A stretch of DNA of 63,687 bases, the filler included, from Rhabdomonas costata (taxonomy: Eukaryota): NCBI GenBank assembly GCA_019059605.1. It is 57 parts of 57 records of this genome, joined end to end, with 100 filler letters (N's around TTAATTAATTAA, not from the genome) between each part and the next. Parts side by side here need not be neighbours in the genome. Positions count along the whole stretch, not along the records: positions 14,556 to 15,574 come from JAHMHO010033214.1; 56 more parts are not named here. One strand, written 5' to 3'. The notes under the pieces were generated by a model. The model was not told where the DNA came from. It worked only from the letters and a program-made list of their open reading frames with translations, and did not search any database. The first letter of the stretch is position 1. Each line of letters opens with the position of its first letter. Of the stretch, positions 1,120 to 50,969 are shown one piece after another. The position numbers and the translations under genes are program-made.

Positions 1120-1158
1120 GTTTGTGGTTTTTGTTGGGATGTTTTGACCTTACCACAG

Positions 1159-1313
1159 GTCCTCTCTGCGTACAAAGATAGCACTGCCGCACTGTGGGAT
1201 CTTCGCTCAGGACAGCGAACGGTAATCCGTGGGCACAGCGGTAGGATGAGACAGACGGTATTCGCCGATCCTTTGGGCCGGAGGGTGCTCACCGCCAGTA
1301 ATGATGGCACCGC
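1159..1313 (+). CDS. WD40-repeat protein fragment (downstream part frameshifted or intron-interrupted)
   Basis: After cacag|: VLSAYKDSTAALWDLRSGQRTVIRGHSG..F.DP.GRRVLTASNDGTA, with GH, SxDxT and WD motifs. Confidence 0.8.
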
Positions 1314-2611
1314 GAACCATGACATCATCGTGGCTTTGGAGCGGGACGTTGCCGAAAACCTTCCGTGGTTTGCTGGCAGACTCAGAGTCGAAAACGGTAA
1401 GGAGCATCTTTTCTTCAGTGGTGGCCGTAATAAATTTGGGGTCACTCTGAGAGGCCACCCGTATGTGGTGTTGCGCTGCCTGGTGAGTACTGAGATGTAC
1501 TTCGCTGGCGATGCTGCTTGCGCCCTGGGGACATATGATTGTTGCTGCCGGTGACTCCCGTCTCATGATTACTGCCAATAACCGGCATACTGTGGTCCTT
1601 GCGCCGCTACTTCAGCCGGGCGCTGACACAACAGAGAAGGAGGGGAAACGGGCACACTGGTCTGGATTCAGCGATAGCCAAGGGACAAGATGCAAAAGAG
1701 GCGCTTCCGCATTCCTGAATGCCGCACCGCTGCTGTGGGAGTGCCCCGCTGAAAAACGTTCGCTCGGGGTGACCCTCCCCTTCATCGAAATGCACTGTAT
1801 TGTTGAAAAACGATGCACTTTTTGTGCACTTCCATTCACTTGACACACCTGCCTCACTGCACGGTCCGTCCCTCGCAAGCAACGAATTTCAGGACAATTT
1901 AAGTTGGTGCTAAAAGGAGGTTCGCCCGCCCCCTCCTCCCAGCTATGCTCGAAGGCTCCTTGTGGTGGATATTTCATTGTGTTGTGGGACGCACTGCTTG
2001 TCCTCCAGCATTAGGTTTGCCTTTGCTTGTAGTCCGGTTGTGTTTTCTCCTTTTTTGTACTGGAGCTTGCGGCACTGCCCTTGGAATCACACTTCTTGAG
2101 CAATCCACGAAACAGGGGAGAAGCCGCNNNNNNNNNNNNNNNNNNNNNNNNNNNNNNNNNNNNNNNNNNNNTTAATTAATTAANNNNNNNNNNNNNNNNN
2201 NNNNNNNNNNNNNNNNNNNNNNNNNNNGGTTGTGTGTAAGGCTGCCGTCTGTTTGATTTCGGCCATCGCCGTTGCGTCGTCCTTCTCGCTGTTGTGAAAA
2301 TATTTGCCCTGAGAACTTGAACTTGTGGTCATCCCAATGAGGGAGGGTGAGACCGTGCCGAAGAACTGCGCACAAAGGAGCGCGGCGTGACAATTTGGAG
2401 TACCCAAGGTTGCTGGTCTAAAGTGCCTGCGGGTGTCGGAGGTTCATCAAATGGTGGGTGCAGTGCTGCTACATTTAAGGATTAATGGGGACCCTAATTT
2501 GGTCCTAATTTGGTCCTTAACGGAGAAACGGTCTGCGGAAGGCCTATCGATTCTCTCAAGTTATGTGCGACCAAGGACCACCTCCTAGGATTGCTCTTGG
2601 TGTGTTTACAA

Positions 2612-11198: not shown

Positions 11199-12197
11199 GT
11201 TGCAGCTGTCAGCAAATGGCCCAAAGGTGAGACCGCCGATGACGAACACTTGCAACTTGTAGAAAATCTCCAAAACATCTGCAGGCGTGATTGAGGAGAA
11301 GTCATCGACAATACCGGGAAGGGCCTGCAGTCCAGCAATCGCAAGTCGAGCGGATGCATATGCCTCTAAGGAGGTCACAGAAGAAACATCTCCAGAGCCA
11401 AATGAAAGCATCGCTGCTTGGAAACCCTGAACCATCGAGTAGTCCGGAGAATGGGGAACAACTTGACTAACCACAAGCTTAGCTGAGCTGCCGTTCATCA
11501 TGGTAACAAAGGCATCACCAACGGAAGAAGGGCAAAGGTAAACCACCTCCGAAGGTAGTAACGCCTGAGCTGCACGAATGAAAGCAGCAGCAGTGGTGCC
11601 ATTGGTCCACACCACTACCACCTGGGGTACGAAGGGTTTCGCACCACCAACGAGTGAAGCCAGCCCATCGGCAATCGTCGGAGAAAAGCTGCCACCGCTG
11701 AGCAACCGAAGATTCACCGCCTGAAGTGCCAAGCGAAGAGACTCAACCCCTTGTTGCCCAAAGCTGTCGTTGCTGTAGAACATCGAGAACATCGTTAGGT
11801 CAAGGCCACTGGCGGCATAGTTTACCAAAGCATTCATCTCATCTCCATAACTCGCGCGAACCCTGATCACGTTCCGATTGCCTGCCATGGAAATCAGTGC
11901 AGCAGAGCTTGGGTAAGGGCCAATGAACGCCATCCCCGTCGAGTTCAGGGAGGAAGACAGAGCAGGGCTGAAACCGTCTTCGTAGCTCCCAACAAAACCA
12001 AGAACTCCATTCAACCCAAGAACTGCGGTAGCGGCAGAGCCTGCGCTGCTGCCGTCTAATGTCACCAAGTGGAGAAGGCGACCTGCAATACCACCTTCCC
12101 AGTTCTGCTCTCAAAAACCCACTTGCACCCCAATCTGAAGGGAGACCCCGATGGACTGAAGATATCCTGTCAATGGAACAGCTTGCACGAACACAAG
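11199..12197 (-). CDS. Type-1 periplasmic-binding-protein (LivJ / Venus-flytrap-like) sensor domain, probably the ectodomain of a receptor cyclase or kinase; one in-frame TGA at 12113-12111
   Basis: LVFVQAVPLTG..IG..LQIG...GF*EQN..GGIAGRLLHLVTLDG ... FIGPY...NVIRVRASYGDEM...FYSNDSFGQQG...VSQVVP...SLEAY...IGGLTFGPF..CN follows the PBP1 ligand-binding pattern; no introns over ~1 kb. Confidence 0.85.
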
Positions 12198-12599
12198 GGC
12201 CTTCAAACCCAACCCAGNNNNNNNNNNNNNNNNNNNNNNNNNNNNNNNNNNNNNNNNNNNNTTAATTAATTAANNNNNNNNNNNNNNNNNNNNNNNNNNN
12301 NNNNNNNNNNNNNNNNNGTGGTGTTGGGAAAGAAAACGTTGCTGGAACGTTGCGGACAACCTAGATTTACGCGGTAAACCTCAGGTAGTATTCCTGAGAT
12401 TCGTTCCTGCGATCATGTGAATGTGAAGTTGGTGTTATGTTTTTTTGCTTGTCGTTTGAGATGATGGTGGTTCTGAGGCGCGGCCACACTAAACGGCCGG
12501 AGGCCTCAAAATAAAATGCCACTGGCGAACAGCAGCGGCGTGCGCTGAAAAGTGAGGGAACCAGTTCATTATGGGTTTTTTTTACTGCCGATTCTGCAG

Positions 12600-14555: not shown

Positions 14556-15574
14556 GCACGTCTTGGCCCCCGAGCTGGCAGCTCGTCCACTTTAGTTAGA
14601 GTGGGGCTCTGAACGATTTTTCCGGCTGTTCCAGGCTGCAACCAGCACGGGTGACTTTCTCTGCGCGCTTGGCCCAAGCACCGCTGCGGTTACCTTCAAC
14701 ACTCACCCTCGGGGTCGGCGTCGCGACGCAGGGTCTATGACTACGTGGTCTCGAAGTGCGAGGGGGGGGGGCAAGACTAATTATTACGGCCGGAAAACGT
14801 AAGCTTTCCTAGCAATACGCCATTATTGTCAGATCGGACCACACTGGATACCTGATCTTGCACCCCCTCTCTTCCCATTTTCTGGATCACGAATGATGTC
14901 CACCTCTTTCTCTCTCAATTTTGCAAGGCTGCGGAGGCTCCTGTGGGACTTGCACCTCGGGGACCTGCAACACCACCACCGGGCAGTGCGTTGCCACCTG
15001 TGTTCCCTCGTGCACCGGAAAGCAATGTGGCAGTGATGGTGAGCTTCTGCGTTTATTCTTTTTGCTCAAGGCTTCTCCACCCTCCTCTTAGACGCTAGTG
15101 CATTTATGCCCCCTCCCCCCTCCGTGGGGTGGGTCCACCCTGTTTGGGCTGTGAACGAGAGGTTTTATGGGCCGGAGAGTGGATTGGGTTAGGAGGTGAT
15201 GCAGGGGTCTCCTGGGATTTTAGTATTGGAATTTTTAGGGGGTTAGGTGGCGATGCACGGTTCCCCGGATCACGATAGGAGCTTTTGCAGGTGGTTAGGT
15301 GTATCTGTGCGTGAGCTTGGTTGTGAGTTTCAAGCCGAAAATTTGTCGACTTGTTGTGGATGTGCCTGTGACGTCCTTCGCCATCCTTAAAACTCCGGAG
15401 ACGTATACTTCCTGTCTGTGTGTTATTTCTGAGTTGGGGCCACCAATGCACGTCTTGGCCCCCGAGCTGGCAGCTCGTCCACTTTAGTTAGAGTGGGGCT
15501 CTGAACGATTTTTCCGGCTGTTCCAGGCTGCAACCAGCACGGGTGACTTTCTCTGCGCGCTTGGCCCAAGCACC
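14556..15574. repeat. Self-overlapping contig: 892-bp unit plus a 127-bp exact terminal direct repeat (collapsed tandem array or circle)
   Basis: 14556-14682 is identical to 15448-15574 (127 bp, typical of a k=127 graph loop). Confidence 0.93.
14928..15038 (+). CDS. 111-nt symmetric phase-1 exon encoding a 37-aa 8-Cys module (GCGGSCGTCTSGTCNTTTGQCVATCVPSCTGKQCGSD)
   Basis: Pyrimidine tract plus ttgcaag| acceptor and |gtgagc donor; the last G plus the first GC rebuild Gly, so the exon splices in frame to itself. Confidence 0.85.
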
Positions 15575-50377: not shown

Positions 50378-50969
50378 TCTAGGTGCTCCTCCCTCGGGTG
50401 CACAAAGGGACACCGTTGAAACTTGCATGATCCCGTGCAGCATCGCACTCCTGGGGCACACGTGCTCGTCTTCCACCTGCTTTCAGCTGCGGCTTTCATG
50501 TCTCGCACCTGGGAATGTCAGGGGTCTCTTTCCTGCCGTCGTGTGTGTGTGCGTGTGCGTGTGTGTGCGTGGGGGGTTCGCCCTCTGCGTGCCGCCGGCC
50601 TATGCCCATTTGCCGCGCCATTTTGTTGATCTGGACAATTCATTTTGGGCCTGTCACGGTTGCGCGTACTTACAGCTTCAATGCTGTCCACAACGTCAGC
50701 TTCTGAACACCGTTTGCACATTATTCAATTAAAATAAAAAGCGTGGCTGGGTTTGCATTAACGCTGCGCGGCAGGTGGGTACCCCAGTACAACGCACACG
50801 GCATCAAAGATGTCGCTCTCCTTCTCAATGATGGCCAGCCGCAAGGCGGGGATGATCTGCTCCAGAGCGGCGCTAACCTTCGGCCGAACATCCTGAGCAA
50901 GGCAAGGGAGTCCCAAACCCGTTTGTCCTTCATGACCTTCCGGCAACTGCATGATGGGCACGTAACCGT
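50378..50969 (-). CDS. CCCH zinc-finger-like protein fragment (exons ~50969-50783, ~50508-50378)
   Basis: WKTSTC......CTGSCKFQRCPFVHPREE resembles YKT..C.....G.C....C.F.H..EE. Confidence 0.55.

What the first reader, a model, noticed from the sequence alone, without database searches (positions are those of the whole stretch)
14556..15574. Self-looping 892-bp unit with one self-compatible Cys-rich exon: a gene built from near-identical tandem exon+intron cassettes
Seen: the contig ends overlap exactly by 127 bp and lack primer-like ends. The 892-bp loop holds one 111-nt exon (aag|...|gtgagc, phase 1-1) and a 781-nt intron. Splicing round the loop yields (GCGGSCGTCTSGTCNTTTGQCVATCVPSCTGKQCGSD)n with no stop. 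Inference: copies are similar enough, introns included, to collapse at k=127, implying recent amplification or concerted evolution of a length-variable disulfide-rich surface or extrusome protein. An extrachromosomal circle is the alternative. From memory, the C.P.C.GK.CG.DGCGGSCG.C pattern resembles repeats in myxobacterial secreted proteins, which would make it an intronised, possibly transferred module.
Basis: partly seen in the sequence, partly recalled or inferred. Interest (0 to 1): 0.8.

Follow-up and report, generated by a model that had tools for sequence, protein, structure and literature searches.

The report
Collapsed tandem exon-intron cassette, euglenid gene
A 1-kb contig that loops back on itself holds one small exon for a cysteine-rich protein module otherwise typical of myxobacteria, most likely one unit of a repeated exon-plus-intron array in a gene for a secreted protein of a euglenid protist.

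Summary
The contig 14556-15574 has an exact 127-nt end overlap (unit 892 nt), the only one among the window's 57 short contigs.

It carries one 111-nt exon (14928-15038) with AG/GT borders, in phase 1-1.

The exon is real. A profile of 416 bacterial and metagenomic modules matches it as the last 24 positions of one 37-residue, 8-Cys module followed by the first 13-14 of the next. Only head-to-tail splicing restores a whole module (50.2 bits; best of 500 shuffles -4.7).

A transcript-derived Rhabdomonas costata protein (P0061: signal-like N-terminus, chitin-binding CBM_14, then modules) reads straight across that junction. It is 34/37 identical to the spliced module.

In bacterial genomes the module is overwhelmingly myxobacterial: 56 of the 80 kept loci carry myxobacterial names. 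No other eukaryote-labelled hit was found.

The claim that many near-identical cassettes, introns included, were collapsed rests only on the self-overlap. Without reads or the assembly graph it could not be tested.

Verdict: a real, moderately interesting new member of known kinds. The extrusome role is speculation.

The parts
14556..15574 (+). Self-overlapping contig: one 892-nt cassette plus a 127-nt repeat of its start
   Evidence: ends identical over exactly 127 nt; 1 of 57 contigs in the window with a terminal overlap
14556..14682 (+). First copy of the 127-nt end overlap; lies inside the intron
   Evidence: family D1, 100% identical to 15448-15574; no similarity to the other 56 contigs beyond 12-33-nt chance matches
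15448..15574 (+). Second copy of the 127-nt end overlap; the same intron stretch
   Evidence: family D1
14556..14927 (+). 3' part of the 781-nt conventional intron: pyrimidine-rich tract about 14897-14925, acceptor AG at 14926-14927; contains a G10 run at 14762-14771
   Evidence: only one AG lies between the upstream in-frame stop and the first conserved residue (sequence)
14928..15038 (+). 111-nt exon, phase 1-1, 37 codons. It encodes profile positions 14/15-37 of one 8-Cys module and positions 1-13/14 of the next
   Evidence: DNA similarity to 80 bacterial loci is confined to unit positions 372-484, i.e. window 14927-15039
15039..15447 (+). 5' part of the intron, donor GTGAGC at 15039-15044
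   Evidence: stops in all three frames; a 127-aa minus-strand ORF (15107-15487) has no Pfam hit

Best explanation
The contig is one unit of an intragenic tandem array in a nuclear gene of a euglenid, Rhabdomonas costata or a close relative.

Each 892-nt cassette is a 111-nt exon plus a 781-nt conventional GT-AG intron. The intron sits inside the protein module, between D13 and G14 of the CG-x-D|G-CGG core. Each exon therefore carries the back two thirds of one 37-residue, 8-cysteine module and the front third of the next, and splicing neighbouring exons rebuilds whole modules.

Because the breakpoints of the repeat unit lie in the intron, unequal crossing-over between homologous introns can add or remove cassettes and keep them alike. 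A short-read assembler with k=127 then folds the identical copies into one cycle.

The mature protein is probably a secreted or surface glycoprotein: signal peptide, a chitin-binding CBM_14 domain, then a beads-on-a-string run of small disulfide-knotted modules, each with an N-x-T sequon and a Thr-rich loop. The run would act as a stiff spacer or matrix element, as the same module appears to do in myxobacterial exoenzymes and surface proteins.

Shown:
- the overlap;
- the exon and its permuted fit to the module;
- the transcript-level junction in a 34/37-identical relative;
- the myxobacterial distribution.

Inferred:
- the number and identity of the cassettes;
- that P0061 is the 5' end of this same gene;
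- secretion, glycosylation and the spacer role.
For: 1. Exact 127-nt self-overlap, unit 892 nt.

2. A profile of 416 bacterial/metagenomic modules matches the unspliced 64-aa ORF as profile positions 14-37 followed by 1-14. Two spliced units give a complete 1-37 match of 50.2 bits. 500 shuffles reach at most -4.7 bits.

3. The exon length, 37 codons, equals the commonest spacing of modules in the relatives: 83 of 244 successive pairs, and 136 of 244 fall within 35-39.

4. P0061 = EukProt EP00906 Rhabdomonas costata P017414, predicted from a poly(A)-selected transcriptome (PMC8219788, passages read). It carries the joined motif and is 34/37 identical to the spliced module. It has CBM_14 at residues 34-85, E 2.2e-9.

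5. All 29 complete introns examined in six R. costata genes are conventional GT/AG (PMC8219788, section 7 read). The borders here are AG|...|GTGAGC.

6. Exon GC is 0.64 and intron GC 0.53, the same direction as the species' transcriptome/genome contrast of 58% against 51% (PMC8219788).

7. Homology to bacterial DNA stops within 1 nt of the exon borders. In-frame stops flank the exon. So this is not an uninterrupted bacterial gene.

8. In the relatives, the modules sit next to secreted enzymes (GH9, PAD-type deiminase, M23 and trypsin-like peptidases, GH18) and MYXO-CTERM-like tails.

9. In the AlphaFold2 model of relative P0128, the four-module stretch has pLDDT 88-95 per 10-residue block while pTM is only 0.45, i.e. 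well-defined beads with loosely defined relative positions.
Against: - No reads, depth, graph or long reads were available, so copy number and intron identity between copies are unverified.
- A cycle embedded in unique flanks should normally be cut at its entry and exit nodes. A clean self-overlap needs the flanks to have been lost or pruned, or the molecule to be circular (my reasoning on de Bruijn graphs, not a tool result).
- None of the other 56 contigs shares sequence with this one, so no entry or exit edge was seen. The window is a tiny sample of the assembly.
- P0061 differs from the loop exon at 3 of 37 positions and lacks the 'AT' dipeptide before its next module. So either the array is not uniform or P0061 is a paralogue.
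- Five of six frames of the exon concatemer are open, so the open frame is not evidence in itself.
Confidence: 0.72

Rival explanations
1. Only a local repeat, not a homogeneous array. The gene has several exons of this design, but the cassettes have diverged. Two neighbouring introns merely share a stretch of 127 nt or a little more, or the flanks dropped out of a patchy assembly, and the assembler closed the path into a loop.
For: P0061 shows that exons of this type are not all identical: 3 of 37 differences plus a 2-residue length difference in the next module. The self-overlap equals a typical assembler k (recalled: 127 is the largest default k of SPAdes), so the overlap length says nothing about the true length of the repeat.
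Against: A repeat longer than k bounded by unique flanks would split the loop into two contigs. A repeat of exactly k would be a coincidence (reasoning, not a tool result). The whole 892-nt path, exon included, must be read-supported as returning to itself.
Confidence: 0.14
2. A small circular DNA of 892 bp. It would be an extrachromosomal circle excised from such an array by recombination between cassettes, or a product of genome amplification, rather than the chromosomal array itself.
For: An isolated cycle with a k-length overlap is what a circle gives. Euglenids keep rDNA on extrachromosomal circles (abstract of PMC9082867, seen in the listing).
Against: The exon is a permuted module that makes sense only next to like exons. 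A linear mRNA context exists in P0061, which has an N-terminal signal-like region and CBM_14. A circle would therefore still derive from a chromosomal array. No replication or promoter feature was sought or found. The only Rfam match is a sub-threshold chance hit (16.6 bits against a gathering score of 58).
Confidence: 0.1
3. Bacterial (myxobacterial) contamination or a chance open frame, with no splicing.
For: The module is overwhelmingly bacterial in the databases searched.
Against: Bacterial relatives encode the modules as uninterrupted arrays (sequences). Here in-frame stops bound a fragment that begins and ends in mid-module. Similarity to bacterial DNA is at most 74.5% and confined to 111 nt. 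The flanks are 53% GC against a median of 68% in the bacterial loci.
Confidence: 0.02

Closest known systems
Rhabdomonas costata RCo025133 (EukProt EP00906_P017414; P0061), transcript-derived, 130 aa, truncated at its 3' end
   Same: The module is 34/37 identical to the spliced window module, with the CGSD-GCGG junction contiguous in the mRNA-derived sequence. It is probably the 5' end of this gene or of a paralogue.
   Different: Three substitutions. Its next module starts without the 'AT' dipeptide. It shows only about 1.3 modules, so it says nothing on array length.
37-residue 8-Cys tandem module of Myxococcota secreted and surface proteins, e.g. P0002 (JGI name: endoglucanase; GH9) and P0005 (NCBI name: agmatine deiminase family protein, Deltaproteobacteria MAG)
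   Same: Same Cys spacing and core motif, and the same 37-residue period. Up to 29/37 identity (P0006). Profile score 50.2 bits for the spliced module.
   Different: The bacterial arrays are uninterrupted ORFs attached to enzymes and MYXO-CTERM-like tails. Here the module is split by a spliceosomal-type intron and is paired, in P0061, with a eukaryote-style CBM_14 domain.
Cys-rich tandem repeats of Myxococcus xanthus TraA (TIGR04201), proposed as a rigid stalk (PMC3325183, passages read)
   Same: A tandem Cys-rich extracellular spacer in a myxobacterial surface protein with a MYXO-CTERM tag. This is the working analogy for function.
   Different: Neither the exon nor four module-rich relatives match any NCBIfam repeat model, TIGR04201 included, even at E up to 10. 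The module is not a member of that family by this test.
Human LPA kringle IV type 2 array (recalled, no call)
   Same: An intragenic tandem array of near-identical exon-plus-intron cassettes that vary in copy number and collapse in short-read assemblies.
   Different: LPA has two exons per 5.5-kb unit, and each unit is a whole domain. Here there is one exon per 892 nt and the intron cuts inside the module.
EGF-like, LDL-A and furin-like small disulfide-rich repeats
   Same: Beads-on-a-string small Cys-rich extracellular modules. These are the only (very weak) fold-search neighbours.
   Different: 0 PDB matches at E <= 0.001; the best is E 0.27 with TM 0.11. There are no sequence matches to PDB chains.

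Membership tests
Myxococcota-type 37-residue 8-Cys module (no name in the local Pfam or NCBIfam copies) | Full-length match to a profile built from the family's modules, with all eight Cys in register | tested here: met
   The profile of 416 instances (window and P0061 left out) gives hmm 1-37 and 50.2 bits on the spliced peptide; 500 shuffles reach at most -4.7 bits.
Myxococcota-type 37-residue 8-Cys module (no name in the local Pfam or NCBIfam copies) | Tandem arrangement with a period of about 37 residues | tested here: inconclusive
   The exon is 37 codons, equal to the modal spacing (83 of 244). P0061 shows 1.3 modules in tandem. The number of tandem copies in this gene is unknown.
Myxococcota-type 37-residue 8-Cys module (no name in the local Pfam or NCBIfam copies) | Extracellular context (signal peptide or lipoprotein signal) | tested here: inconclusive
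   P0061 starts with a hydrophobic signal-like segment, judged by inspection only; no signal-peptide predictor was available. Its CBM_14 domain is extracellular in kind.
TIGR04201 (TraA-type Myxococcales Cys-rich repeat) | Match to the NCBIfam model | tested here: not met
   No such hit for the exon at E <= 10, nor for P0009, P0128, P0043 or P0236 at E <= 10. HMMER's filters can hide very weak matches.
Pfam PF02363 C_tripleX cysteine-rich repeat | Score above the gathering cut-off | tested here: not met
   12.9 bits against a cut-off of 22.9, E 0.14, on the exon alone.
Pfam PF26780 (label precomputed on 4 of 65 hits and on P0249 and P0251) | Match to the model | not testable with these tools
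   The local Pfam copy returned no such family for P0013, P0017, P0249 or P0251. I do not know its name or whether it is this module.
Conventional (spliceosomal) euglenid intron | GT...AG borders with a pyrimidine-rich 3' tract | tested here: met
   GTGAGC...TTTTGCAAG, with a pyrimidine-rich last 30 nt. All 29 complete introns examined in R. costata are GT/AG (PMC8219788, section 7).
Conventional (spliceosomal) euglenid intron | Removal seen in RNA | not testable with these tools
   The only support is indirect: the junction motif is contiguous in transcript-derived P0061.
Intragenic tandem exon-intron cassette array (LPA KIV-2 kind) | Several head-to-tail copies, near-identical over exon and intron | tested here: inconclusive
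   The only evidence is the 127-nt self-overlap of the assembled contig. There is no depth, graph or long read.
EGF-like / LDL-A fold | Significant structural match | tested here: not met
   0 of 186 listed PDB matches reach E <= 0.001; the best TM normalised by query length is 0.17. The model is of relative P0128, not of the window's own protein.

The most novel reading that the evidence does not exclude
A myxobacterial extracellular Cys-rich module entered the euglenid lineage by horizontal transfer and was fused to a eukaryotic chitin-binding domain. It then acquired a spliceosomal intron in the middle of the module. The resulting exon-plus-intron cassette was amplified by unequal crossing-over between introns into a homogenised array of variable copy number. 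That would be a documented path from bacterial repeat to intron-punctuated eukaryotic macrosatellite gene, giving a surface or mucilage glycoprotein of hypervariable length.
Probability: 0.35. Interest if true: 0.65.

Novelty: new member of a known kind. Interest (0 to 1): 0.5.

Why it matters
If the array is confirmed, it is a compact natural example of three processes at once:
- a bacterial-type extracellular module working in a protist;
- an intron lying inside a structural module rather than between modules, so the classic 'one exon, one domain' picture of exon shuffling does not apply;
- homogenisation of whole exon-intron cassettes.

It also flags a class of genes that short-read assemblies of euglenid genomes will systematically collapse.

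The module family itself is large. 303 representatives score E <= 1e-3 at the 50%-identity cluster level. It has no model in the Pfam and NCBIfam copies used here and no solved relative, so it would merit a family description and a structure.

Tried and rejected
**Family and structure searches**
- Pfam and NCBIfam on the exon and on module-rich relatives found no model for the module.
- PDB by sequence, with a single protein and with a profile of A2, gave 0 hits at E <= 1.
- PDB by fold gave nothing at E <= 0.001.
- Rfam on the contig gave one sub-threshold hit, taken as chance.

**Searches inside the window**
- No other contig carries a further cassette or an entry or exit edge (blastn; motif scan; profile scan).
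- The 127-aa minus-strand ORF in the intron has no Pfam hit.

**Searches for other eukaryotic carriers**
- Only P0061 carries the 'eukprot' source, and none of the 120 listed rows does. One search found 359 hits and I saw 120 rows. Most sources give no taxon, so this is weak evidence of absence.

**Literature**
- The motif strings and PF26780 gave 1 paper, irrelevant.
- 'euglenid' plus 'chitin-binding' gave 2 papers, neither on this (listing only).
- The one supplement file of PMC8219788 that is held has no mention of RCo025133, peritrophin or chitin.

- Searches failed because the query was too short or the alignment not conserved enough. I re-ran them with a longer window stretch or with P0061.

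**Ideas rejected**
- An introner-like dispersed element as the source of intron identity. The intron sequence has no copy in the other 56 contigs and no terminal inverted repeats, but the sample is small.

**Unchecked**
- The closed collections metagenome contigs and viral contigs.
- Reads, depth and the assembly graph.
- bioRxiv supplements.

Full report
**What the window is**

The window is not one locus. It is 57 contigs of 1008-1036 nt joined by N/TTAATTAATTAA spacers. The finding is contig 14 (14556-15574).

A Pfam scan of the 70 longest stop-to-stop ORFs of the window gave hits for only 2 of 70. This fits a gene-poor, intron-rich eukaryotic genome in fragments.

**The observation**

The first and last 127 nt of the contig are identical, giving a unit of 892 nt. 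No other contig of the 57 has such an overlap, and none shares sequence with this one.

- It follows a pyrimidine-rich tract and the only AG between the upstream in-frame stop and the first conserved residue.
- It is followed by GTGAGC.
- It is 111 nt, in phase 1-1. Round the loop the intron is 781 nt.

The 'endless' frame is true but weak on its own, because 5 of 6 frames of the concatenated exon are open.

**Is the exon real?**

Yes, and the test is independent of the loop.

- The 42-aa stretch around the exon finds 65 proteins at E <= 0.01 among 112 candidates, the best at 1.6e-38.
- The 36-aa exon peptide finds 303 cluster representatives at E <= 1e-3. Each of the 150 listed matches it in 3 to 30 stretches.
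- From the 209 fetched proteins I extracted 417 full-length module matches. I built a 37-position profile from 416 of them, leaving out the window and P0061.
- The unspliced 64-aa ORF matches this profile as positions 14-37 followed directly by positions 1-14. So the exon starts and stops in the middle of the conserved CG-x-D|G-CGG-x-CG core.
- Two exons joined give a complete 1-37 match of 50.2 bits. 500 shuffles of the same peptide reach at most -4.7 bits.
- Of 2483 six-frame segments in the window, this is the only one that matches (E 4.6e-11; next best 0.65).
- The exon's 37 codons equal the commonest module spacing in the relatives: 83 of 244 successive pairs, and 136 of 244 within 35-39.

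A fragment whose two ends are the complementary halves of a module can only be functional if it is spliced to exons of the same design on both sides.

**Transcript-level support and the organism**

One hit, P0061, comes from EukProt. The cluster look-up names it EP00906 Rhabdomonas costata P017414, RCo025133.

That protein set was predicted from a poly(A)-selected Trinity transcriptome (PMC8219788, passages read).

P0061 (130 aa) has these parts:
- a hydrophobic, signal-like N-terminus (by inspection);
- CBM_14, the peritrophin-A chitin-binding domain, at residues 34-85 (E 2.2e-9);
- the module, with the junction motif uninterrupted.

Its first full module is 34/37 identical to the window's spliced module, against 29/37 for the best bacterial instance. 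The protein breaks off in its second module, as expected if a transcript assembler meets repeats.

I therefore take the contig to be from R. costata or a close relative.

In that species all 29 complete introns examined in six genes are GT/AG (PMC8219788, section 7), and coding sequence is richer in GC than the genome (58% against 51%). Here the exon is 64% GC and the intron 53%.

**Bacterial relatives**

A scan of one genome per bacterial and archaeal species, with P0061 as query, confirmed 240 of 432 candidate stretches. By my count from the table, the 80 loci kept are labelled as follows:

| Label in the record title | Loci (of 80) |
|---|---|
| Myxobacterial names (Myxococc-, Polyang-, Archang-, Anaeromyxobacter, Haliangium) | 56 |
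| Deltaproteobacteria | 14 |
| Other or vague labels | 10 |

- Named database hits are likewise Myxococcota or Deltaproteobacteria MAG proteins.
- The modules sit beside GH9 endoglucanase, PAD-type deiminase, M23 and trypsin-like peptidases, GH18 chitinase, deacetylase and lamin-tail domains.
- Some relatives end in MYXO-CTERM-like tails. These matches are weak and below the cut-offs.

DNA similarity between the cassette and these loci is at most 74.5% over 106 nt. It is confined to unit positions 372-484, i.e. the exon plus or minus 1 nt. The intron is not bacterial, and any transfer is not recent.

No other eukaryote-labelled protein turned up (and the 120 listed rows of 359 hits).

**Family and fold**

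- No model in the local Pfam or NCBIfam copies matches the module, TIGR04201 (the TraA repeat) included.
- A precomputed label, PF26780, sits on a few hits but is not in the local copy, so I cannot say what it is.
- No PDB chain matches by sequence.
- An AlphaFold2 model of the complete bacterial relative P0128, made with a 48-row alignment, gives pLDDT 88-95 per 10-residue block over the four modules but pTM 0.45. Each module ends in a beta-hairpin.
- Foldseek against the PDB gives no match at E <= 0.001, only faint likeness to EGF, LDL-A and furin-like repeats.
- In the model the intron position falls inside the N-terminal knot of a module, not between modules.

**How it most likely works**

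The repeat unit's breakpoints lie in the intron. Misaligned recombination between neighbouring introns would therefore add or delete whole exons in frame and keep the copies alike.

The product would be a secreted chitin-binding protein with a variable run of stiff, probably glycosylated beads. Each module has an N-T-T sequon and a Thr-rich loop (by inspection).

For function the best analogy is the 'rigid stalk' proposed for the Cys-rich repeats of TraA (PMC3325183, passages read). That is an analogy, not membership.

**What remains open**

The claim that many near-identical cassettes were collapsed rests only on the self-overlap.

By my reasoning on de Bruijn graphs, a cycle embedded in unique flanks should be cut at its entry and exit. 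A clean loop therefore needs one of three things: pruned or missing flanks, which is plausible for a high-copy loop or a patchy assembly; a repeat of exactly k; or a circle.

My estimates:

| Explanation | Confidence |
|---|---|
| Tandem array | 0.72 |
| Merely local repeat | 0.14 |
| Small circle | 0.10 |
| Contamination or chance | 0.02 |

The extrusome role has no support.

**Novelty**

Intragenic arrays of near-identical exon-intron cassettes are known (LPA kringle IV-2, recalled), and so are bacterial-type genes in euglenids. This case is a new member of those kinds.

It has one unusual twist: an intron inside the module of a domain that is otherwise myxobacterial.

Literature searches for the motif strings and for euglenid chitin-binding proteins found nothing on it.

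Noticed in passing
window 11199-12217 (contig 11), ORF 11199-12110 minus strand: A 304-aa ORF open over almost the whole contig matches Peripla_BP_6 (E 6.9e-21) and ANF_receptor (E 8e-6). It is either a bacterial contaminant contig or an intron-less eukaryotic ligand-binding receptor fragment.
   Followed up: partly
window 35827-36845 (contig 33), minus strand: A 339-aa reading frame is open across the entire contig with no Pfam hit at E <= 0.001. It may be a long exon of an unknown protein.
   Followed up: partly
window 30231-30300 (contig 28) and 50472-50541 (contig 46): The two contigs share a 70-nt stretch at 94% identity, at the very start of contig 28. This may be a dispersed repeat or an assembly-graph neighbour.
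   Followed up: no
window 14762-14771 and 15110-15126: The intron holds a G10 homopolymer and a C-rich run (ccccctcccccctcc). Such tracts are error-prone in amplified short-read data and could hide differences between copies.
   Followed up: no
proteins P0005, P0009, P0128, P0093 (relatives, not the window): A second Cys-rich element (GCCDG...L.YC...CGW...Y.CG) recurs next to the module arrays in several bacterial relatives. It is modelled with low confidence (pLDDT 34-70). No family was found for it.
   Followed up: no
precomputed Pfam labels: PF04371 (PAD_porph, agmatine deiminase family) is by far the most frequent enzyme partner of the module in the listed hits. PF00526 (Dictyostelium Cys-rich repeat) is labelled on a few module proteins (P0034, P0050, P0230, P0280).
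   Followed up: no
window 1120-1551 plus strand (contig 2): A weak WD40-like match (CAF1B/HIR1 beta-propeller, E 8e-4, far below the cut-off) in a 144-aa open frame. It may be an exon of a WD-repeat gene.
   Followed up: no
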